Virus record (IMG/VR): IMGVR_UViG_3300037067_018912
Coordinates: 256,001 to 320,000 of that record
From: a virus
Taxonomy: Duplodnaviria; Caudoviricetes
Reading direction: 5' to 3' (one strand)
Length of the DNA: 64,000 bases
Shown here piece by piece: positions 1,755 to 26,979 of this stretch. Positions within the stretch are counted from its first letter, which is position 1, and each line of letters starts with the position of its first letter. Below the pieces are notes generated by a model. The model was not told where the DNA came from, searched no databases, and saw only the letters and a program-made list of their open reading frames with translations. Made by a program: the position numbers and the translations under genes.

Positions 1755-2117
1755 GGGGGTGCTTTGGCTTTGACAGCGTGAACGGGATATGACGCAAGCA
1801 AGTGGTAGTTGAATCGGACTACCTTAAAAAGGTTCAAAACAATAGAAGCAGAGGATATAATGTCCATTCCAACTTCCCTCACAAGGGGAAGAAGCGTTTT
1901 CGTTGAGAGTGCTGAACTCATCGCAGCGTAAGGAAGCAACAAACGGCAAAAAACTTCCCAAATCATTCAGGTCTTTTGAAATCTGGTTTTTGGAAGATAC
2001 AGGAAGTAAAATAAAAGAATTGAATCAGATATGTTGACTGTTCTGAAAAACAGTATAAACTTGTAGAAAACGCATTGATCGCATGTTTGGACCGGGGTTC
2101 GACTCCCCGCACCTCCA
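1755..2117 (+). ncRNA. ssrA: tmRNA; predicted tag AEDIMSIPTSLTRGRSVFVESAELIAA* (1848-1931)
   Basis: 5' GGGGGTG pairs with 3' CACCTCC-A with G3:U70; CGGGG-TTCGACT-CCCCG T-arm; internal ORF ends in ...IAA-stop. Confidence 0.93.
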
Positions 2118-2143
2118 CTTAAACAATTGTAAATTAATTATTT

Positions 2144-16363: not shown

Positions 16364-16394
16364 TGTAACTGTTTTATCTTTGCAACGTATTTAA
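16364..16394 (+). promoter_or_regulatory. stacked promoters (ECF-type, Bacteroidota -7 TATCTTTG, GTATTTA)
   Basis: TGTAAC 16364, TATCTTTG 16376, CGTATTTA 16386. Confidence 0.7.
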
Positions 16395-16436
16395 GAGAAA
16401 CGATATTTTTCGTAAAATAATAACTTTAAATTTTCA

Positions 16437-16562
16437 ATGAAAACTTTAGCCACATATAGGCCAACGTCCGGATCGACAGAAAGTCGCAACGGGAATGCTA
16501 TATCCTGCTCATTTATTAATGACGGCAGAGGCATATACGGCATCGGGTTATTGTTTTCGTGA
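16437..16562 (+). CDS. codon-sampling leader peptide MKTLATYRPTSGSTESRNGNAISCSFINDGRGIYGIGLLFS (attenuator 2)
   Basis: 41-aa ORF; 29 of 41 residues are T/R/S/G/N/I/C/F, the specificities of the downstream tRNAs. Confidence 0.85.
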   Translation: MKTLATYRPTSGSTESRNGNAISCSFINDGRGIYGIGLLFS

Positions 16563-16589
16563 GAAAAAAAGGACAGTTAAAACTTAACG

Positions 16590-16619
16590 AAACCCGGTGT
16601 CAAAAGCACCGGGTTTTTT
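16590..16619 (+). terminator. intrinsic terminator of attenuator 2
   Basis: AAACCCGGTGT-CAAAA-GCACCGGGTTTTTT; 5' arm can pair with GGCATCGGGTT at 16539-16549. Confidence 0.9.
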
Positions 16620-16662: not shown

Positions 16663-16733
16663 GTCGGGATAGTATAGTGGTAGTACGCTTGTGTGGTATT
16701 CAAGTGACACCAGTTCGAGTCTGGTTCTCGGCT
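16663..16733 (+). tRNA. tRNA-Thr(GGT), atypical anticodon arm
   Basis: CTTG-T-GT GGT AT-T-CAAG; acceptor and T arms intact. Confidence 0.7.
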
Positions 16734-16817
16734 CAACGAATATCAGTTGTGAAACTCATATTCATCGATTATAAGGTCACAACCTTATGATTGAGTTCTT
16801 TGACATGCTGGAATTTT

Positions 16818-16898
16818 GAAGGGTTGCCTGAGTGGTTGAAAGGGACAGTCTGCAAAACTGTTAGGAAACTCACGTGGGTTCAAATCCCACACCCTTCT
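16818..16898 (+). tRNA. tRNA-Cys(GCA), long variable region
   Basis: ACAGT-CT GCA AA-ACTGT, U73. Confidence 0.9.
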
Positions 16899-16960
16899 CA
16901 AAAGCGATATTTTGCGAAAAGCATTGTTTTTCGGTACTTATTGCAAAATATCGCTCTTAT

Positions 16961-17032
16961 GGACTGGTGGCTCAGTGGTAGAGCGTCTGGCTGTTAACCA
17001 GAGGGTCGGGGGTTCAAATCCCTCTCAGTCCG
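16961..17032 (+). tRNA. tRNA-Asn(GTT)
   Basis: TCTGG-CT GTT AA-CCAGA. Confidence 0.93.
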
Positions 17033-17037
17033 CAAAT

Positions 17038-17111
17038 TGTCTCGTAGTTCAGTTGGTTAGAGCACATCCCTGATAAGGATGAAGTCGTGAGTTCAACTCT
17101 CACCGAGACAA
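17038..17111 (+). tRNA. tRNA-Ile(GAT)
   Basis: CATCC-CT GAT AA-GGATG. Confidence 0.93.
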
Positions 17112-17187
17112 CAAACCGCCCCCAGCGGTATATAAAATTATGAATAAGCAATGCGCATTTAGTGCTGTTCATATACTGGGGACGCAT

Positions 17188-17262
17188 TGGGTGGTAGTTC
17201 AGTCCGGTTAGAACGCATCTCTGATAAGGATGAAGTCGAGGGTTCAAATCCCCCCCTCCCAA
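17188..17262 (+). tRNA. tRNA-Ile(GAT), second copy
   Basis: CATCT-CT GAT AA-GGATG. Confidence 0.88.
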
Positions 17263-17383
17263 CAAAAGGTTCGTAGTCCGAAAGCCTAACCAGCCGACGG
17301 GTGAAGTTTCCTTGGCGAAATTGATGTAAACAAGCACCTGTGGTGGGATTGCGATGTGCTGATAAAGTGACCGAAAACTTAAT

Positions 17384-17470
17384 GGAAGGTTGGCAGAGCG
17401 GTCGATTGCGCCTGTCTTGAAAACAGGTGTACATGCCAATGTACCGGGGGTTCGAATCCCTCACCTTCCG
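17384..17470 (+). tRNA. tRNA-Ser(TGA)
   Basis: CCTGT-CT TGA AA-ACAGG, long variable arm, G73. Confidence 0.93.
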
Positions 17471-17553
17471 CACTTGGCGTAACCACGGCACGAACCGTGA
17501 CTTCGGATTTGATCACCGATGAAGCATTTAATGTTGATGCAGTCATGATATTT

Positions 17554-17638
17554 GGAGAGTTGGCAGAATGGTCATTGCAACAGTCCCGAAAACTGTCGTC
17601 GTGAAAGCGGCGTGTAGGTTCGAATCCTATGCTCTCCG
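17554..17638 (+). tRNA. tRNA-Ser(CGA)
   Basis: ACAGT-CC CGA AA-ACTGT (C33), long variable arm. Confidence 0.88.
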
Positions 17639-17645
17639 CAAAATC

Positions 17646-17717
17646 GAGGAAGTAGCATTACATGGGTAGCGCAGGGGCGAAAACCCTGAGAGGTGGGTTC
17701 GATTCCTGCATTCCTCA
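17646..17717 (+). tRNA. atypical tRNA or tRNA-like RNA (GAA in loop GCGAAAA)
   Basis: CAGGG/CCCTG stem and T arm present; weak D arm, no U33. Confidence 0.55.
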
Positions 17718-17726
17718 CTCAAACAT

Positions 17727-17815
17727 GGAAGGTTGACAGAGCGGTCTATTGTAACAGCCTGGAAAGTTGTCGTCGTGAAAGCGACGCAGGGGTTCGAATC
17801 CCTTACCTTCCGCCA
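17727..17815 (+). tRNA. tRNA-Ser(GGA)
   Basis: ACAGC-CT GGA AA-GTTGT, encoded CCA. Confidence 0.92.
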
Positions 17816-17819
17816 AAAT

Positions 17820-17895
17820 TGACTTTAATATTGGAACAAAAAGGATGTAGTGTCATGACACATTCTTCGGGGAGGTTCAAATCCTTCAGAGTCAG
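17820..17895 (+). ncRNA. tRNA-like RNA without canonical D/anticodon arms
   Basis: TGACTTT/AGAGTCA acceptor, GGAGG-TTCAAAT-CCTTC T arm, AAGGATGT/ACATTCTT central stem. Confidence 0.55.
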
Positions 17896-18148
17896 CAAAC
17901 GGGTTGGACTGCAATCCGACCTGTTCTCACAGGATGCTGTTACAATCGTATCATTGCAGTGATGTGGTTGATGCAAAATGTGCGAGTCCCTGTATGCATA
18001 AGATGCTGTCCTAATGTTCAGTAGCAATTCCTCTTTCGCACACATGGTTGGCAACATGAAATGTGTGAGTACGGTGTTGTTCAGAGACGTTTATGTTGGT
18101 TGCAATGCCTCCGGGTTCGTGGTATAAGGCCACAACAGGGACAAATAT

Positions 18149-18220
18149 GGAGTGGTAACTCAGCGGTAGAGTGCCTCCCTGAAGAGGAGGTGGTCGGGGG
18201 TTCAAATCCCTCTCACTCCA
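18149..18220 (+). tRNA. tRNA-Phe(GAA)
   Basis: CCTCC-CT GAA GA-GGAGG. Confidence 0.92.
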
Positions 18221-18556
18221 CAAAAAAGGCAGGTGGACGGATCAAATCCTGTTCCCGCAGGACAAGATTGCCGCCTTGGTGCGGACGTTCACAACGGGAC
18301 TGCCTTATACAGGTCGGGCAACCAGCGGGGTTGTTCGGGTAACTTCCTCACAAGGAATCCTGTAAAAACATTGATAAACGGGGATACCCCGCTGCGAAAG
18401 CAGTGCCCCGCCCATAAAACAGGCTTCACGAAGACCTCCAACTTTAGGTTGGTGGGCGGTCAAACGCCCGGTGAAAGGTTCGTATATCAACAGGCTCACG
18501 GAGTCCTCCAACTTAAAATTGGTGAATCTCAATAATTCAGTAAAAAGTCCGTAAAT

Positions 18557-18628
18557 GCGAGTATAGCACAACGGCCAGTGCGTCAGATTTCCAATCTGAG
18601 GATGTCAGTTCGATCCTGATTACTCGCT
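18557..18628 (+). tRNA. tRNA-Gly(TCC)
   Basis: TCAGA-TT TCC AA-TCTGA, U73. Confidence 0.92.
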
Positions 18629-18635
18629 CAAACAT

Positions 18636-18715
18636 TCACGAATAACTCAGCGGTTAGAGTGCCTCGGCGGGCTTCGGCTACGAGGGAGTCGGGGGTTCAA
18701 ATCCCTCTTCGTGTA
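18636..18715 (+). ncRNA. tRNA-like RNA with 14-nt anticodon loop
   Basis: CCTCG-GCGGGCTTCGGCTA-CGAGG; D and T arms canonical. Confidence 0.7.
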
Positions 18716-18767
18716 CAAAAGGTCTGAGGGAGTCCTTTGAAGGTATAAACAACCTGTCCCTCTCCAC

Positions 18768-18840
18768 GGTGGTGTGGCGCAATGGTCAGCGCAGGACTCT
18801 TATAAGGTCAAGGTTGGGGGTTCAAGTCCCTTCACCACTA
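18768..18840 (+). tRNA. tRNA-Ile(TAT)
   Basis: GACT-CT TAT AA-GGTC. Confidence 0.88.
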
Positions 18841-18847
18841 CAAAAAT

Positions 18848-18932
18848 GTTTGGTTAGTCAAGTGGCCGACGACAGCAGGCTGTTAACCTGCCGAGAGAAA
18901 TCCCATCGTAGGTTCGAATCCTACATCAAACG
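18848..18932 (+). tRNA. tRNA-Asn(GTT) with long variable region
   Basis: GCAGG-CT GTT AA-CCTGC plus 16-nt variable region. Confidence 0.88.
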
Positions 18933-18978
18933 CAAATCATTTCCAAACCCTTATAGTATTTATGTGAAAATTAATGAT

Positions 18979-19230
18979 ATGAAGAAGGTTTGGGAAAGTC
19001 TCAAGTGGTTTTTCAGCAGATGGATGCTCGTGTTGGTTGTGCTTATTGTATTGGGGATAATCGCAACGTTCATAATAAAATTCACAACACATACAGAAGA
19101 ACCATACAAAATTCCATTGTTCATCATCGGTGGTTGGGGGGTATTTGTCGTTCTCTTCACTTGGGTGAGAGAGATTTATTGGAAAATTGCAGGTAAAGGT
19201 GATTATGCTAAAAAGGACGAAAAGAAATGA
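18979..19230 (+). CDS. small two-TM membrane protein
   Basis: Two hydrophobic stretches; GTATTTAT 23 nt upstream. Confidence 0.75.
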   Translation: MKKVWESLKWFFSRWMLVLVVLIVLGIIATFIIKFTTHTEEPYKIPLFIIGGWGVFVVLFTWVREIYWKIAGKGDYAKKDEKK

Positions 19231-19604
19231 ATATAATTTCGATTCTATTATTCTTTTTCGCCGGGGTTTGCAATGCCTGCATGGATGTATTAAGAACGAG
19301 ATATAACACTTCTACATTTCGTTTTTGGCGGAATCAGAATTGGGTGAACCCGGCATTATCATGGCCGAATAAATGGAAGCCAAAGTCGAAATTCGGTGAT
19401 CTTATTATGTCGACAGTCCTTGTATGGGTAACTGATTTTTGGCATATGTGTAAAATGTTGATGATTCTTTGTTTTACAATGGGAGCGATTTTTTATCAAC
19501 CAATTTTTGACTTTTCAAAATTTTGGTTGGATTTGTTGATTTTATATTTTATATTCACAGGAACATTTGAACTGTTTTTCAGCAAAGTGCTAATAAAGAA
19601 ATGA
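19227..19604 (+). CDS. membrane protein
   Basis: Hydrophobic, TDFWHMCK motif, overlaps previous stop. Confidence 0.75.
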   Translation: MNIISILLFFFAGVCNACMDVLRTRYNTSTFRFWRNQNWVNPALSWPNKWKPKSKFGDLIMSTVLVWVTDFWHMCKMLMILCFTMGAIFYQPIFDFSKFWLDLLILYFIFTGTFELFFSKVLIKK

Positions 19605-19632
19605 CAATCATGTAAAATAATAAAGGGACATA

Positions 19633-20544
19633 TTGATGATCAAGATTTTCAAAACTTTCGGCGGGTGCGAAAGCGCAACCAAATTGGAAAAGGGATGTTG
19701 GATAGATGTGATTCAACCTACACAAGACGAGATTGAAGAAATAATAAACGGTTTTAACCTGCCCCCCGATAGTATACAAGACATTCTTGACGCCGATGAA
19801 ATGCCCCGTCTTGAAATCGACGACACTTACACCTTGATCATCATGCGTATTCCGGTGGAGAATTCACAAAACGGAATACCTTATTACACAATACCTCTTG
19901 GAATTTTTGTGACGGAAGATTTCACAATCACGATTTGTAATCAGGACAATGAAATCATTCAACCGAAACAATTGAGTAGCACGGCGGACACATACAATTT
20001 TATTTTGAAATTTTTTGTCAGATCAGCGAGTGTTTTTTTGAAATACCTTAAACAAATCAATCAACAGACAAGTCAAATCGAAAAGGATTTGGAAGAATCA
20101 ATTAAGAACAGTGAATTGAAAAAACTGTTGAAGATGGAAAAATGCCTTGTGTACTTCATTACTGCAATAAAATCGAATGAAATCGTCCTTCACCGTTTAA
20201 AAAACTCGAAAAGGATCACGGGTGAAATCAATGAAGACCTTTATGAGGACGCATTGATTGAAAACAGGCAGGCACTTGAAATGGCGCAGATATATTCAGA
20301 CATCTTGAGCGGGATGATGGACGCATTTGCCTCGATCATTTCGAACAACCTAAATGTGATAATGAAGAAATTGACGCTCATTTCAATAATACTCATGATC
20401 CCGACCCTTATCGCAAGTATATTCGGAATGAACATTCCGAATTTCATGGAAGGTTCAAATTGGGCGTTGCCTTCAATAATAATATTATCCCTATCACTGT
20501 CTTTGATCAGTGTGAAACTGATGAGAAACAAGCAGTGGTTTTAA
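19633..20544 (+). CDS. corA: CorA-family Mg2+ transporter
   Basis: WIDVIQPT, LDADEMPRLE, NNLNVIMKKLT, FGMN signature, two C-terminal TMs. Confidence 0.92.
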   Translation: MMIKIFKTFGGCESATKLEKGCWIDVIQPTQDEIEEIINGFNLPPDSIQDILDADEMPRLEIDDTYTLIIMRIPVENSQNGIPYYTIPLGIFVTEDFTITICNQDNEIIQPKQLSSTADTYNFILKFFVRSASVFLKYLKQINQQTSQIEKDLEESIKNSELKKLLKMEKCLVYFITAIKSNEIVLHRLKNSKRITGEINEDLYEDALIENRQALEMAQIYSDILSGMMDAFASIISNNLNVIMKKLTLISIILMIPTLIASIFGMNIPNFMEGSNWALPSIIILSLSLSLISVKLMRNKQWF

Positions 20545-20548
20545 AAAT

Positions 20549-20632
20549 GCCGATATCGCATAGTTGGTCAATTGCGCCGCACTTGTAATGCGGAGAAGAA
20601 ATTCTTCGTGGGTTCGAATCCCGCTATCGGCT
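20549..20632 (+). tRNA. tRNA-Thr(TGT) with long variable arm
   Basis: CCGCA-CT TGT AA-TGCGG, AGAA-GAAA-TTCT arm. Confidence 0.9.
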
Positions 20633-20734
20633 CAAAAGTAGGTGAAAAAGCGAAAGGATAACCTTCGGTATCAGGAAAACCTTTCACGGGTGCGGGAATA
20701 GACCGACTTGAACCGCACCCCGCTTATTTAAGTT

Positions 20735-20806
20735 GCCGATATAGCACAGCGGTAGTGCACCTGTTTCGTAAACAGGGGGTCGCAGGTTCAAATCCCGCTA
20801 TCGGCT
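20735..20806 (+). tRNA. tRNA-Thr(CGT)
   Basis: CCTGT-TT CGT AA-ACAGG. Confidence 0.92.
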
Positions 20807-20846
20807 CAAATCCTTGCTATTCTCCCTAATTTTTCCTAATTTTAAT

Positions 20847-20918
20847 GCCTCTATAGTTCAAGGGACAGAACAGAAGTTTTCTAAACTTCCGATCATGGTT
20901 CGAGTCCATGTGGGGGTA
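20847..20918 (+). tRNA. tRNA-Arg(TCT)
   Basis: GAAGT-TT TCT AA-ACTTC, A20 in D loop. Confidence 0.9.
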
Positions 20919-20932
20919 CTAAATAAATTAAA

Positions 20933-21166
20933 ATGTATACAGTTATCTGCCCGAAATGCAAGAAGTCCTTCACTGTGTCGGGTGACACCGAATACGTTCT
21001 TTGTTGCGATGAGGTGATATTCATCCCATCTAATGGTCCTGAAATGAAAGGCATCACTTTCCAATGCATACAGGAGGGGTTAATGAGGGATGGACGCAAC
21101 GTCGACCGGATATTTCTTGGTGATCCAAATGAAAGTATTGCACCCGATCCATACGAAGGATTGTGA
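20933..21166 (+). CDS. small Cys-motif protein
   Basis: CPKC...LCC. Confidence 0.6.
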   Translation: MYTVICPKCKKSFTVSGDTEYVLCCDEVIFIPSNGPEMKGITFQCIQEGLMRDGRNVDRIFLGDPNESIAPDPYEGL

Positions 21167-21329
21167 TGCGTTTTACGGTAAAGAAAATGAACGGCAAGGT
21201 CGCCTTTATGAATGAAAACAAAAGGTGGGTCAAACTCAATGGTTACGCTTTCCTTGATGAATACGGCCATTGCATCATAATTGTTTATGGTGAAGCGAGA
21301 ATGAAAGATGTTGAAAAGTATTTAAGTAT

Positions 21330-21401
21330 GCCCCTGTAGTTCAATGGACAGAACGGAAGTTTCCTAAACTTTAAATTCGAGTTCGATTCTCGGTGGGGGT
21401 A
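21330..21401 (+). tRNA. tRNA-Arg(CCT)
   Basis: GAAGT-TT CCT AA-ACTTT. Confidence 0.9.
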
Positions 21402-21493
21402 CAAAAACAGACAAATATTATCCGTCAATATGCAAAAACGTATAATAACCGGATAATAAATATCCTTATATGTAAAAGCATATAATAACATTC

Positions 21494-21565
21494 GCTCCCG
21501 TAGTTCAACGGATAGAACGCAAGTTTCCGGAACTTGTGATGCAAGTTCGATTCTTGTCGGGAGTA
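21494..21565 (+). tRNA. tRNA-Arg(CCG)
   Basis: CAAGT-TT CCG GA-ACTTG. Confidence 0.92.
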
Positions 21566-21592
21566 CAAGGTATTTATGTGAAAAGTAAATCA

Positions 21593-22069
21593 ATGAACAA
21601 CACCAAATTGAATGAAGAGATTCTGACCGCATACCGGGGTGGTGGGGAAATGCCGAGTCAAAGAAGGCTTTGGTACTTTACAACAAACGTCAAATATGCA
21701 AATTGGTTCAAGAGATACGCTTCCCTTGGAAAAGGCAAATTGTTTAAAGCGGATATAAGCACGGACAACCTTCTCGATTTGAGGTTTGTGACAAAACAGT
21801 TGAATTATCTTGATCTTCATTACATTTTAAAAAACAATGGAATAAGACCACCAAAATTCGTAATTGAAAACATTGAAGCGGGTTATGGTGGATACAAAGG
21901 TAATCTTTGGGAGTTCTTGAAAGAAGACAATGAATTGTGGGACAACATCTCAGAGAAATACGACGGAGTTATTTTCACCGAGACGAATCCGGAAGCGAGA
22001 CATACGGGCAAGGCGGAGACTATAATAATTGATATGATCAAGCACCCGGTCGAATATGAAGAAGTATAA
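21593..22069 (+). CDS. putative ADP-ribosyltransferase-fold protein
   Basis: AYRGG...WYFTTNVKYA...YDGVIF pattern of ART-like phage domains; LNEEI N-terminus. Confidence 0.55.
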   Translation: MNNTKLNEEILTAYRGGGEMPSQRRLWYFTTNVKYANWFKRYASLGKGKLFKADISTDNLLDLRFVTKQLNYLDLHYILKNNGIRPPKFVIENIEAGYGGYKGNLWEFLKEDNELWDNISEKYDGVIFTETNPEARHTGKAETIIIDMIKHPVEYEEV

Positions 22070-22072
22070 TAT

Positions 22073-22146
22073 GCACCTGTAGTGTAACTGGACAACACGT
22101 CTGACTACGGATCAGGAGATTGAGGGTTCGAATCCTTTCAGGTGTA
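22073..22146 (+). tRNA. tRNA-Arg(ACG)
   Basis: TCTGA-CT ACG GA-TCAGG. Confidence 0.92.
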
Positions 22147-22256
22147 CTAAAACCATAAGCCTATAGTCCAATATTCGAGAGTAACTTCTCAGAAGGGCAC
22201 GGTGTACAACGGAATTCAGGTATGAAATCCTGATGGGAACAACTTATGGTTTAATT

Positions 22257-22329
22257 GCAGAAATGGCGCAATCGGTAGCGCATGGCCTTCCCAAGGCCAG
22301 GGTTGCGGGTTCGAGACCCGTTTTCTGCT
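22257..22329 (+). tRNA. tRNA-Gly(CCC)
   Basis: TGGCC-TT CCC AA-GGCCA. Confidence 0.92.
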
Positions 22330-22337
22330 CAAATTTT

Positions 22338-22412
22338 GCGGGAATAGCACAGTGGTAGTGCGTTTGCTTGCCAAGCAAAAGGTCGTGAGTTCAAGCCTCA
22401 TTTCCCGCTCCA
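22338..22412 (+). tRNA. tRNA-Gly(GCC)
   Basis: TTTGC-TT GCC AA-GCAAA, encoded CCA. Confidence 0.93.
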
Positions 22413-22413
22413 T

Positions 22414-22486
22414 GCGAGATTAGCACAGTTGGTTAGTGTATCGGCTTGCCATGCCGGGAACGTGGGTTCGAATCCCATATCTTGCT
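22414..22486 (+). tRNA. tRNA-Gly(GCC), second copy
   Basis: TCGGC-TT GCC AT-GCCGG. Confidence 0.88.
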
Positions 22487-22501
22487 CAAAATTATGTTGT
22501 T

Positions 22502-23215
22502 ATGTCATTTACTTTTACACTTAAATCAACAGGAGAAGAGATAACACTCCCAACACCAAGCGGTGGTCCGGTTGAAATTGACTCTTTACCTTCCGAACCA
22601 TTGGAAATGAAGTACAGGACGATCGTGGTATCTGACCTGCACATTTTCAGAGATGATTCGAAATACAAAGAGTGTTTTAAATTTTTGATATACAATCCCT
22701 CGGAGAAGATCATCCTGAACGGTGATATCTTCGATTTCCTGCACCTGCTCAAGCATTGGTCGAATTATAAAAAGTACAAATACGTCATGCGAGGGTTCAG
22801 GATATTCATGAAGGAGAGGGGGACAAAGGTGATCTTCCTCGTCGGCAATCACGACTATCATTATTACCTGTTGAAGATCATACAACCCTTCCTGGGGATC
22901 AAAATTAGAAAATTTTATACTTTCGAATCAATTGCCGGGAGGATTCATGCCACACACGGAGATTGGATACCCTACGTGTTAAAGATCAAAAGGTTCTTCA
23001 ATAAAACAATCAAGATATCCGGCAACGAGGATGATGATTACGTCCTCTACGGATTATTAAAGAAATACAATGTCCTCATTTGCGGACACACACATGAACC
23101 GCTGTACAGGATTTACAACAACCTCCTCTACATCAACACAGGCGATTGGGTGAGCGATAACATGGCCGCCGTGGAAGAATTCGACGGGAGTTGGCATTTG
23201 ATACAAACACAATAA
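22502..23215 (+). CDS. calcineurin-like metallophosphoesterase (LpxH-like)
   Basis: SDLH, NGDIFD, GNHD, THGD, CGHTH, NTGDW. Confidence 0.88.
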   Translation: MSFTFTLKSTGEEITLPTPSGGPVEIDSLPSEPLEMKYRTIVVSDLHIFRDDSKYKECFKFLIYNPSEKIILNGDIFDFLHLLKHWSNYKKYKYVMRGFRIFMKERGTKVIFLVGNHDYHYYLLKIIQPFLGIKIRKFYTFESIAGRIHATHGDWIPYVLKIKRFFNKTIKISGNEDDDYVLYGLLKKYNVLICGHTHEPLYRIYNNLLYINTGDWVSDNMAAVEEFDGSWHLIQTQ

Positions 23216-23222
23216 GAACGGT

Positions 23223-23537
23223 ATGAAAGGGATCATAAAATACAATACCAGGTTTTACAAAAAATCTGATAAACCCCTCAAAGAGGGTGATTTAGTTAAA
23301 CTTGAATGTAAAAGAGGTAGCGATTATTTCAAATACAATGGAATATATACCGTCAACAAATGGAACGAAATATTAGTTCCACTTAAAGAAGAAAACGGTA
23401 AAAAATATAATCTTTGTATTAAACTTGGATACAACGTTTTTAAACACGAGGAATACTCCAAATTGGTTGAGGTTCAAAGAAGGAAGTCCCTTCCAAAACC
23501 AGTGAAAGAAGAACAAATGTGTGGTTATACAATATGA
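23223..23537 (+). CDS. hypothetical protein
   Basis: 104-aa ORF. Confidence 0.65.
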   Translation: MKGIIKYNTRFYKKSDKPLKEGDLVKLECKRGSDYFKYNGIYTVNKWNEILVPLKEENGKKYNLCIKLGYNVFKHEEYSKLVEVQRRKSLPKPVKEEQMCGYTI

Positions 23538-23554
23538 TCTACCCCACCACACAA

Positions 23555-23813
23555 AAAACATAGCACAGAGGATTCATCGCTTGTTCAATAAAATCGTCTG
23601 TTCACTGTACGTGAACATTCAAAAATATTGAACAAGAGGAAGTTCGGGACACCACTGCTGAAGGCGGGAGATTCAACGCTAATCGGGATCGCCAATACCG
23701 CCGAGGGTGCAAGCCAAACAGTTTGAGACGGTGAGCAGGTCTTTGAGAACGGGTTGGTGCGTAGATAAATGATGATTAACAACAGAATCCCGGCTACGCT
23801 CATGCTATGTTTT
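23555..23813 (+). ncRNA. rnpB: RNase P RNA, short form with reduced specificity domain
   Basis: P1 AAACATAGCA/TGCTATGTTT; P3 CTTGTTCAATA/TATTGAACAAG; GAGGAAGTTCGGGA and AACAGAATCCCGGCTA (P4); TAGATAAATGA. Confidence 0.85.
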
Positions 23814-23969
23814 AAAATTTTTGACGAATGAATCGAAATCAGTGACGAATGGATGAGAATCATTAATGAAATTAATGTGTTTTAGTCATAATTTAGTCTT
23901 GAAACTCTTATCATTGTAACAAGTCCGGTTTTTTTTCGTATCTTTGTCAGGTAATCAAAACAATCTTGC

Positions 23970-24281
23970 ATGACAACATTATTGAAAAAGGATATCAAAC
24001 GGGAGACGTTCTCCGTAACAGACTTCAAAGGCAACGTAATGATCGTTACCCTAAAAGCGGGTGACATGATCGAGTTCAGAGCGAAAGGTAAGAGGATCAA
24101 GTACGAAGTACCGCTTGCCGCCTGTTTCAACTTGGCAATGATCTATTCCGCACACGAGCGATATAAGGAAAGGATTAAACGCTACGAGGATGGTCGCAAG
24201 GAAGGCCGGAAAATGAAAAGGCCAAGATTGATGCCAAGGATTTTCAATGAAAGATTGTATCAGGCATTGAAATTAATTTAA
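23970..24281 (+). CDS. hypothetical basic protein
   Basis: 103-aa ORF behind ECF-type promoter at 23915. Confidence 0.75.
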   Translation: MTTLLKKDIKRETFSVTDFKGNVMIVTLKAGDMIEFRAKGKRIKYEVPLAACFNLAMIYSAHERYKERIKRYEDGRKEGRKMKRPRLMPRIFNERLYQALKLI

Positions 24282-24439
24282 TATATTTGTGTTATGACAT
24301 CGGAGAGTAAGAGAAAGAAGGAGAAAAACAACACGCATAGTGCCAACGGGTTTGCGTTGAAAGAGCATGAATGTAAAATGAAAAGAGCATTGTATTTCAA
24401 TTCATCAAAAAGACAAAAACTCAAAAAAATCGACACCGA

Positions 24440-24808
24440 ATGAACCAAGAATTATGGGAAATATTAGTCCCCTCTTTCAGTAACGGTGGTGAAAAATTTC
24501 CGCTCGAACACCATAAGAAATGGGATGCCTTTGTCAAGAAGATCGCAAAAGGCGTGACGATCATGAAAACTGCCAAAGGTGAATGGGTTAGTCCGACCGG
24601 ACAGGTCTATATGGACAGAATGATCCCATGCCGAATCATTTGTAATGAAAGTCAAATGGATAAAATTATTGATTTCACTATTGAGCATTACGACCAAGAG
24701 GCTGTTCTTGCGTACAAGATTTCGGACAACGTGATCCTGCGCCACAGGAATGACAAGAGCATTAACGAGGACGTCCAAAGACTTTGGAATCAAAGAAACT
24801 ACAGATGA
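24440..24808 (+). CDS. hypothetical phage protein
   Basis: 122-aa ORF. Confidence 0.75.
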   Translation: MNQELWEILVPSFSNGGEKFPLEHHKKWDAFVKKIAKGVTIMKTAKGEWVSPTGQVYMDRMIPCRIICNESQMDKIIDFTIEHYDQEAVLAYKISDNVILRHRNDKSINEDVQRLWNQRNYR

Positions 24809-25002
24809 TACCAATTAAGGATATATTACCTTGTCCGTTTTGCGGAGCACAGGTGAAAGATCATCCGAATCCGATAACCAGTAAGGAATTTTTTATGGTA
24901 AGGCACATGAATGGTTGTTATTTCTTAAAAAATAATTCATCGGATTTCACCTTATTATTGAAAAACGATTATTATATAAAAAGTTGGAATAAAAGAATAT
25001 AA
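24805..25002 (+). CDS. zinc-ribbon protein (Lar-like N-terminus)
   Basis: LPCPFCG. Confidence 0.55.
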   Translation: MIPIKDILPCPFCGAQVKDHPNPITSKEFFMVRHMNGCYFLKNNSSDFTLLLKNDYYIKSWNKRI

Positions 25003-25004
25003 TC

Positions 25005-25196
25005 ATGGGAATGTTCGGTGAAATACATGCAGGAATGAATGCTGAACAATTGGAAAAAATCCTTTTGGAGGCAATAAAGGAAAATGACACCATCAAAGCA
25101 TTTGCAAAAAAACATCTGTATCAGTGGTATCTGTCCGAATGCAGTGAAGCGTTCCGTGAATCGAACCATGAAATAAAAGATGAATTTGAAGATTAA
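25005..25196 (+). CDS. hypothetical protein
   Basis: 63-aa ORF in operon. Confidence 0.6.
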   Translation: MGMFGEIHAGMNAEQLEKILLEAIKENDTIKAFAKKHLYQWYLSECSEAFRESNHEIKDEFED

Positions 25197-25413
25197 AAAC
25201 ATGGAAATTGAAACAGTAAACGATTTGGCAGAACAGATAGCCGACTGGATTGGCATCTATGGCGGCTGTAAATCAGATGGGGAAAGTGGTTGCACATACG
25301 ATAAATTCAAAAATCCTTGTTGCTGCCGCACAGGTTTTATCACCGCTATGGAGGAAAGGATAAGAGAAGCGGTGGAGAATGAAAAAAAACTCGAACAAGC
25401 GGGTTTGAAATAA
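25180..25413 (+). CDS. Cys-rich hypothetical protein
   Basis: 77-aa ORF, PCCCR. Confidence 0.6.
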   Translation: MNLKIKNMEIETVNDLAEQIADWIGIYGGCKSDGESGCTYDKFKNPCCCRTGFITAMEERIREAVENEKKLEQAGLK

Positions 25414-25418
25414 AATAA

Positions 25419-25507
25419 GGAAGGGTGGGTGAGTGGCTGAAACCACCTGTTTGCTAAACAGACGTGCGGGGCAACCTGCACCGGGGGTTCAAATCCCCCT
25501 CCTTCCG
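25419..25507 (+). tRNA. tRNA-Ser(GCT)
   Basis: CTGT-TT GCT AA-ACAG, long variable arm. Confidence 0.92.
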
Positions 25508-26906: not shown

Positions 26907-26979
26907 GGTTCTGTAACTTAATCGGCTAAAGTAGCAGTCTCTAAAACTGTGTTTGCGGGTTCGAACCCCGCCAGGATCA
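26907..26979 (+). tRNA. amber suppressor tRNA (anticodon CTA)
   Basis: GCAGT-CT CTA AA-ACTGT; GGTTCTG/CAGGATC acceptor; GCGGG-TTCGAAC-CCCGC T arm. Confidence 0.9.

What the first reader, a model, noticed from the sequence alone, without database searches (positions are those of the whole stretch)
23555..23813. Phage RNase P RNA reduced to its catalytic domain
P1-P4 and the conserved core words are recognisable, but only about 50 nt (closed by GGCGG/CCGCC) occupy the position of the specificity domain, giving about 260 nt in total. Established: the S-domain reads the tRNA T-loop/elbow. Inference: a minimal ribozyme that may process the atypical tRNAs and tRNA-like RNAs of this phage, possibly with host RnpA.
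Basis: partly seen in the sequence, partly recalled or inferred. Interest (0 to 1): 0.75.

Follow-up and report, generated by a model that had tools for sequence, protein, structure and literature searches.

The report
Phage miniature RNase P ribozyme gene
A 357-kb phage with about 60 tRNA genes carries a 259-base gene for RNase P RNA, the ribozyme that trims new tRNAs; it keeps the whole catalytic half but only a 40-base stub of the half that normally reads tRNA shape, and it belongs to a widespread phage RNA family that I could not find described in any paper.

Summary
Confirmed. Window 23555-23813 (+) is an RNase P RNA. It has P1-P5, the P6 pseudoknot, P15-P17, the GGU that pairs with tRNA CCA, the bulged U of P4 and CR-I/IV/V, matched base by base to E. 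coli rnpB. The specificity region is 40 nt (E. coli 157); CR-II/III, P18 and P19 are absent. Rfam misses it at gathering score. About 70 distinct homologs (48 below 90% identity) show compensatory changes in every helix tested, including the stub, which is a conserved module. Most lie among tRNA genes; one is in cultured phage DLP6, unannotated. This phage has no recognisable RnpA, but three related megaphages encode both the mini RNA and RnpA. Best reading: an active tRNA 5'-maturase using host RnpA; cleavage and expression are untested. The 'atypical tRNA' rationale fails here, since this phage's tRNA elbows are canonical, although a sister clade has elbow-swapped tRNAs. Closest known: bacterial type A RNA (ancestry) and archaeal type T (parallel reduction). 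This scan found the family before on other DNA (41 notes, at least 37 genomes); I found no paper on it.

The parts
23555..23813 (+). Miniature RNase P RNA gene, 259 nt
   Evidence: Rfam RNaseP_arch local hit; family model R1 154.7 bits, single copy in the genome; covariation
23555..23565 (+). P1 5' strand (11 bp with 23803-23813; a further 3 bp at 23568-23570 with 23799-23801)
23572..23578 (+). P2 5' strand (pairs with 23771-23777)
   Evidence: all 7 pairs show changes on both sides in the family
23580..23636 (+). P3, long in this copy (11 bp plus an inner 7-bp hairpin at 23599-23617); it accounts for the 259 nt against about 200-215 nt in most homologs
23636..23649 (+). CR-I and P4 5' strand (23641-23649), bulged U at 23644 = E. 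coli U69; family signature G-C and U-G at the E. coli A67-U and G68-C pairs
23650..23653 (+). P5 5' strand (pairs with 23706-23709)
   Evidence: 99% of cells paired, 3-4 pairs covary
23655..23659 (+). P6 pseudoknot 5' strand (pairs with 23734-23738 in the P17 loop)
   Evidence: own-partner score 14.1 against 9.2 +/- 0.36 with shuffled partners, maximum 10.3 in 1000
23663..23702 (+). Specificity-domain remnant, 40 nt: 5-bp stem in the P7 position, GA, a hairpin (23670-23690), and a 7-nt one-sided bulge (23691-23697; family consensus G-Y-Y-W-N-Y-A)
23709..23712 (+). J5/15, equal to E. coli G246-A249 (A248 is the N-1 binding site, established knowledge)
23713..23758 (+). P15 (3 bp; E. coli has 4), L15 with GGU at 23752-23754, P16 and P17
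23763..23770 (+). CR-IV (J18/2); P18 absent in this copy
23782..23796 (+). CR-V and P4 3' strand (23788-23795); 23786-23787 = E. coli A351/A352; P19 absent
16437..16619 (+). Context: leader peptide and terminator ahead of the tRNA array (16663-25507) in which the RNA lies; probable shared transcript (inferred)

Best explanation
The gene encodes a working, stripped-down bacterial type-A RNase P RNA. It is probably transcribed with the phage tRNA array (inferred). It folds into the full catalytic domain (shown by covariation), binds Mg2+ at P4 and CR-V (inferred from conserved nucleotides), and recruits the host's RnpA protein (inferred). It grips precursor tRNA by the 3' CCA end through L15 and by the base before the cut through J5/15, and it cuts 5' leaders from the roughly 60 phage tRNAs and the tmRNA (inferred). 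The 40-nt stub replaces the two T-loops of CR-II/III, either as a reduced elbow contact, as modelled for archaeal type T, or as a structural strut. The gain for the phage would be tRNA maturation capacity that does not depend on the host's rnpB RNA.
For: The active-site and substrate-binding nucleotides match E. coli rnpB and are nearly invariant in 52 members; L15 GGU is found in 52 of 52. Helices covary. 30 of 47 representatives have a tRNA within 500 nt, many 0-11 nt away, and tRNAs nearby lie almost always on the same strand. A full-size type A RNA (RF00010 157.8 bits) with the same P4 signature lies in a viral contig among tRNAs. Three megaphages carry both the mini RNA and RnpA with its RNR motif. 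42 of 58 phage tRNA genes have U at -1 against 32% U in the flanking bases. The phage also encodes a CCA-adding-type domain. The E. coli C-domain alone cleaves, about 100- to 500-fold more slowly, and needs P6 but hardly P18 (PMC5839562); type T RNA without most of the S-domain is catalytically active (PMC7191817).
Against: No cleavage assay and no expression data. CR-II/III are absent, and losing the S-domain costs E. coli RNA 100- to 500-fold (PMC5839562). P15 is usually one pair shorter than in E. coli. Only 5 of 58 tRNA genes encode a full CCA, so CCA must be added before L15 can pair fully. The host is unknown and presumably has its own RNase P. The three RnpA-bearing phages are relatives, so they count as one case. 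A camelpox RNase P-like RNA proved inactive (PMC3001073).
Confidence: 0.7

Rival explanations
1. An active RNase P-type ribozyme with shifted specificity: freed from the elbow check, it mainly cuts hairpin-plus-CCA substrates such as polycistron spacers, tRNA-like RNAs, elbow-variant tRNAs or host RNAs.
For: CR-II/III are lost while L15 is kept. One clade of mini-RNA phages has whole tRNA sets with T loops starting TGC and D loops lacking GG. C-domain constructs cut model hairpins (PMC5839562).
Against: This phage and most carriers have canonical elbows. The stub is conserved in the position where type T is modelled to touch the elbow (PMC13462272).
Confidence: 0.17
2. A catalytically dead decoy that soaks up host RnpA or binds tRNA ends to disturb host tRNA processing.
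For: No RnpA in this genome or in 26 other carriers, most of them fragments. An inactive viral RNase P-like RNA is on record (PMC3001073).
Against: The metal-binding and substrate-binding bases are nearly invariant. Some carriers bring their own RnpA. A phage with 60 tRNA genes needs 5' processing.
Confidence: 0.08
3. A split enzyme: the missing specificity function is supplied by a second phage RNA or by a phage protein.
For: The stub is conserved and could be a docking site. Two basic proteins of about 104 aa flank the gene.
Against: No S-domain-like sequence elsewhere in the genome. No protein family is shared near more than 4 of 48 representatives, and the two flanking proteins have no homolog beside other copies and no informative Atlas match.
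Confidence: 0.04
4. A decayed rnpB fragment or a chance resemblance.
For: RF00010 gives no hit at E <= 1 in a whole-genome search.
Against: Compensatory changes across 44-52 sequences and base-level agreement with E. coli.
Confidence: 0.01

Closest known systems
Bacterial type A RNase P RNA (E. coli M1 RNA, rnpB; Rfam RF00010)
   Same: P1-P5, the P6 pseudoknot to the P17 loop, P15-P17, L15 GGU, bulged U in P4, CR-I/IV/V. A full-size viral member shares the P4 signature.
   Different: S region 40 nt against 157; no CR-II/III, P12-P14, P18 or P19; P15 of 3 bp; two exchanged pairs in P4; below the Rfam cut-off; phage-encoded.
[quoted passage not shown]
   Same: Intact catalytic domain, P6 present and P18 absent (PMC5839562), S-domain reduced to one stem with a loop extruded on one side.
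   Different: Type T is archaeal, cellular and works with Pop5, Rpp30, Rpp29 and L7Ae. The phage RNA has bacterial type A features and is found with bacterial RnpA. Its 7-nt bulge usually has a pyrimidine where a T-loop has a purine. I read this as a parallel reduction, not descent (no tree built).
Engineered E. coli C-domain RNA (Eco CP RPR; PMC5839562)
   Same: Catalytic domain without S-domain, dependent on P6 and nearly indifferent to P18.
   Different: Artificial; has no conserved stub.
Diverged CPR RNase P RNAs (PMC8172020)
   Same: Reduced bacterial RNAs that fall below Rfam cut-offs.
   Different: They lose single helices (P12-P14, P16/17) and often the L15 GGU; the phage RNA loses nearly the whole S-domain and keeps L15.
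Camelpox RNase P-like RNA (cited in PMC3001073)
   Same: A virus-encoded RNase P candidate.
   Different: Only loose structural likeness and no activity; unrelated to this family.

Membership tests
RNase P RNA (clan CL00002) | P4 pseudoknot with bulged U, CR-I and CR-V | tested here: met
   one P4 pair covaries C-G 35, G-C 11, A-U 2
RNase P RNA (clan CL00002) | P1, P2, P3, P5 core and CR-IV | tested here: met
RNase P RNA (clan CL00002) | Cleaves the pre-tRNA 5' leader | not testable with these tools
   needs an in vitro assay
Bacterial type A RNase P RNA (RF00010) | P6 pseudoknot with P16/P17 | tested here: met
Bacterial type A RNase P RNA (RF00010) | L15 GGU pairing with tRNA RCCA | tested here: met
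   23752-23754; 52 of 52 members
Bacterial type A RNase P RNA (RF00010) | S-domain with P8-P12 and CR-II/CR-III | tested here: not met
   40 nt against 157; CR-II-like word in 3 and CR-III-like word in 1 of 48 representatives
Bacterial type A RNase P RNA (RF00010) | Rfam gathering score (100 bits) | tested here: not met
   the DLP6 homolog scores 54.7
Bacterial type A RNase P RNA (RF00010) | Works with RnpA | tested here: inconclusive
   none in this genome; co-occurs in three related megaphages; binding untested
[quoted passage not shown] | S-domain reduced to one stem, CR-II/III pair lost | tested here: met
[quoted passage not shown] | Single T-loop in the remnant | tested here: inconclusive
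   a 7-nt bulge with conserved first G and last A is present, but it does not fit the T-loop pattern well
[quoted passage not shown] | Encoded by Thermoproteaceae genomes | tested here: not met
   phage genome with T4-like capsid; relatives carry bacterial RnpA
[quoted passage not shown] | Archaeal protein partners (Pop5, Rpp30, Rpp29, L7Ae) | not tested
   these families were not searched

The most novel reading that the evidence does not exclude
Phages carry their own structural class of RNase P: a 200-260-nt ribozyme in which a new 40-nt module replaces the T-loop ruler. It is active with bacterial RnpA (host-made or, in some megaphages, phage-made) and lets phages mature tRNAs, including elbow-altered ones, independently of the host. 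In this phage it would also be switched on with the tRNA array by a leader-peptide attenuator. It would be the first functional virus-encoded RNase P.
Probability: 0.5. Interest if true: 0.88.

Novelty: new variant of a known kind. Interest (0 to 1): 0.72.

Why it matters
RNase P is treated as a purely cellular enzyme; the one viral candidate I found in print was inactive. A natural bacterial-type RNA without the S-domain, conserved in dozens of phages and missed by standard annotation, makes an old question directly testable: how far the catalytic domain alone can recognise tRNA in vivo, and what can replace the T-loop ruler. A cultured phage (DLP6) carries it and some megaphages carry RnpA too, so both the assay and the infection experiment are feasible. 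It also extends the picture of jumbo phages that supply their own tRNA pool, from genes through 5' trimming to CCA addition.

Tried and rejected
Expression: no RNA holder listed. Contigs laid on the region are DNA only; two match without a difference but may be the source of this DNA, and two diverged relatives keep the locus. Rfam at gathering score and RF00010 on the whole genome miss the RNA. RnpA, HARP and SmpB were not found in the genome. No separate S-domain was found by nhmmer or blastn; a pattern search for CR-II/III failed its E. coli control and is void. No conserved neighbouring protein; Atlas look-ups of the two flanking proteins gave only weak unnamed hits. Host: the Bacteroidota-type promoter word is not enriched genome-wide (332 against 231-568 for controls); with the upstream element 22 of 66 sites are intergenic against 8-20% for controls, a weak hint only. 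The closest cultured capsid relatives (Microcystis and Flavobacterium phages, 32-33%) and Xoo-sp13 lack the RNA. Five of 27 viral pattern hits were chance matches without CR-V. GTDB gave one hit with a strict pattern, on a 2.3-kb contig with two tRNAs in an Actinomycetes bin that has no full-size rnpB and is under the quality bar: phage or cellular origin is undecided. A kink-turn reading of the stub was considered and dropped, since the position that should be G is a pyrimidine. Ten literature searches found no phage RNase P RNA; the huge-phage paper and the DLP6 paper do not mention RNase P. The type T discovery paper was not available, and most subscription journals are not searched. P4 conservation is partly imposed by my search patterns; four homologs found by other routes have different P4 sequences or extend the family beyond the pattern.

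Full report
Setting. The window is bases 256,001-320,000 of a 357,275-bp virus record with direct terminal repeats, rated 100% complete. It has a T4-like major capsid gene whose closest cultured relatives are only 32-33% identical, and 60 tRNA genes plus a tmRNA. The best-matching sequencing runs are landfill and groundwater metagenomes, either of which may be the source of this DNA. The feature lies on the + strand between two small ORFs, inside a tRNA array that runs from 16663 to 25507.

Observation. Rfam finds nothing here at gathering score, but a local search gives RNaseP_arch 26.2 bits, E 1.8e-5, with the S-domain skipped. Compared directly with E. coli rnpB, the window has CR-I with the bulged U (23644 = U69), G246-A249 (23709-23712), the L15 GGU (23752-23754), CR-IV, and CR-V with A351/A352 (23786-23787). 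The differences are two exchanged pairs in P4, a P15 of 3 rather than 4 pairs, no P18 or P19, and 40 nt (23663-23702) where E. coli has 157.

Family. Pattern scans gave 22 true matches among 27 viral contigs, 72 metagenome contigs and one GTDB contig. These yield 70 distinct cores, 48 of them below 90% identity, with a median length near 213 nt. On a MAFFT alignment of 44 sequences, 83.7% of cells pair (slid controls 34-41%), and 34 of 43 pairs change on both sides. On the model-fitted alignment of 52, which leans towards the structure, 28 of 30 pairs do. The P6 pseudoknot was tested without an alignment: each sequence's own strands score 14.1 against 9.2 +/- 0.36 with shuffled partners. A model built from the family finds one copy in this genome, copies in published huge phages of 484-735 kb, and an unannotated copy in cultured Stenotrophomonas phage DLP6, just before a tRNA-Arg gene. 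A viral contig holds a full-size type A RNA (RF00010 157.8 bits) with the same P4 signature among tRNA genes, which points to type A ancestry; no tree was built.

The stub is a module. In 31 of the 45 representatives that could be parsed it has a 7-nt one-sided bulge, with G first in 28 and A last in 30, between a stem in the P7 position and a hairpin that follows a GA. The stem covaries. This is the topology modelled for archaeal type T RNA, one stem with a loop extruded on one side that touches the tRNA elbow (PMC13462272), but the bulge does not fit the T-loop pattern well. Whether it touches the elbow is open.

Substrates. 30 of 47 representatives have a tRNA within 500 nt, often 0-11 nt away and nearly always on the same strand. 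42 of 58 have U at -1, as RNase P prefers (own knowledge). Only 5 of 58 encode CCA and 52 encode the first C only; the phage has a CCA-adding-type domain in a 1510-aa multidomain protein.

Protein partner. No RnpA or HARP was found in this genome, and no RnpA in 22 viral contigs, most of them fragments, or in four published phages. No neighbouring protein is conserved. The 635-kb phage LR745206, however, encodes an RnpA above the Pfam and TIGR00188 cut-offs, and so do LR756502 and a 483-kb viral contig; all three also carry the mini RNA and a T4-like capsid gene. The RNR motif is intact. They are relatives and count as one case, but they tie the mini RNA to a bacterial-type protein.

Expression, inferred only. 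Following notes on this genome (e1-5647737, e1-5647718), I checked the start of the array. A 41-codon leader at 16437-16562 has 29 of 40 residues from the eight amino acids of the downstream tRNAs (43% expected, p 1.6e-4). Its end can pair over 11 bp with the 5' arm of the terminator at 16589-16617. No promoter word of the kind before the leader occurs on the + strand between 16375 and 23939. Four weaker terminator-like sites lie in between, two of them within tRNA genes. The RNA is therefore probably made as part of the attenuated tRNA transcript. No RNA data could test this.

Mechanism. Shown: the catalytic-domain fold and conservation of the active-site bases. Established: the E. coli C-domain alone cleaves 100- to 500-fold more slowly, depends on P6 and hardly on P18 (PMC5839562); type T RNA is active (PMC7191817). 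Inferred: the RNA binds host RnpA and trims 5' leaders of phage tRNAs and tmRNA, holding the substrate by CCA and the -1 base, with the stub as a reduced elbow contact or strut (0.70). Rivals: shifted specificity (0.17), RnpA decoy (0.08), split enzyme (0.04), relic (0.01).

Relation to what is known. It works like bacterial type A RNase P RNA and probably descends from it, but it fails the S-domain test and the Rfam cut-off, so it should not be filed as an ordinary member. It parallels type T without being one. Ten searches of the held library found no phage RNase P RNA; the only viral candidate, from camelpox, was inactive. Subscription journals are mostly not covered. This scan has noted the family before on other DNA (41 notes, at least 37 genomes); those notes are not independent evidence. 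What I tested here beyond what those notes showed me is the co-occurrence with phage RnpA, the elbow-variant clade and the position behind an attenuator. Verdict: real, a new variant of a known kind, interest 0.72, activity untested.

Noticed in passing
L117:1501-1809 (LR745206.1 76444-76752), L120:2001-2276 (LR756502.1), L118:4001-4306, L119:4001-4306: Megaphages encode RnpA, the protein subunit of bacterial RNase P, with an intact RNR motif. Three of the four records also hold the mini RNA; the fourth is a 242-kb linear contig. A complete phage-made holoenzyme is possible.
   Followed up: partly
L009, L037, L038, L044, L067: Whole tRNA sets with an altered elbow: T loops begin TGC instead of TTC and D loops mostly have AG in place of GG, which suggests a swapped 18/55 contact. 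Literature not checked.
   Followed up: partly
window 16375-16619: Promoter-like word, a 41-codon leader rich in the amino acids of the downstream tRNAs (29 of 40, p 1.6e-4), an antiterminator and a terminator: an attenuator ahead of the tRNA array that holds the RNase P RNA. Noted earlier by the scan.
   Followed up: partly
L002:8540-8900: Full-size type A RNase P RNA in an 83-kb viral contig among tRNA genes, with the same P4 signature as the minis.
   Followed up: partly
L112:999-1247 (KU682439.2): Unannotated mini RNase P RNA in cultured Stenotrophomonas phage DLP6, with extra hairpins at the P18 position.
   Followed up: yes
L113:1500-1721, L121:1501-1723, L122:1501-1710: In the RnpA-bearing megaphages the P4 sequence departs strongly from the family signature.
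   Followed up: no
window 2582-26981 (tRNA genes): 52 of 58 plus-strand tRNA genes of the genome encode only the first C of CCA. Several Lys, Thr, Asn, Cys, Gln and Trp tRNAs are 82-87 nt long while some Leu tRNAs are 75 nt. A CUA-anticodon tRNA lies at 26907.
   Followed up: partly
L103:1-3378 (genome 102-106 kb): A 1510-aa protein joining ART-PolyVal, GNAT and CCA-adding-type nucleotidyltransferase domains.
   Followed up: partly
window 19633-20544: CorA-like Mg2+ transporter gene inside the tRNA array, 3 kb upstream of the RNase P RNA.
   Followed up: no
window 1755-2120: tmRNA with a long tag peptide; no SmpB gene in the genome.
   Followed up: no
window 23516-23551: An 8-bp stem with a 20-nt loop just upstream of P1, a possible processing signal.
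   Followed up: no
window 22487-23560: Other contigs in two runs join a tRNA end directly to the start of an RNase P-like RNA, without the 1.07 kb of ORFs between them; they may come from related phages.
   Followed up: no
L030:175-395: Mini RNA on a 2.3-kb contig with two tRNAs in an Actinomycetes bin that shows no full-size rnpB; phage or cellular origin undecided.
   Followed up: partly
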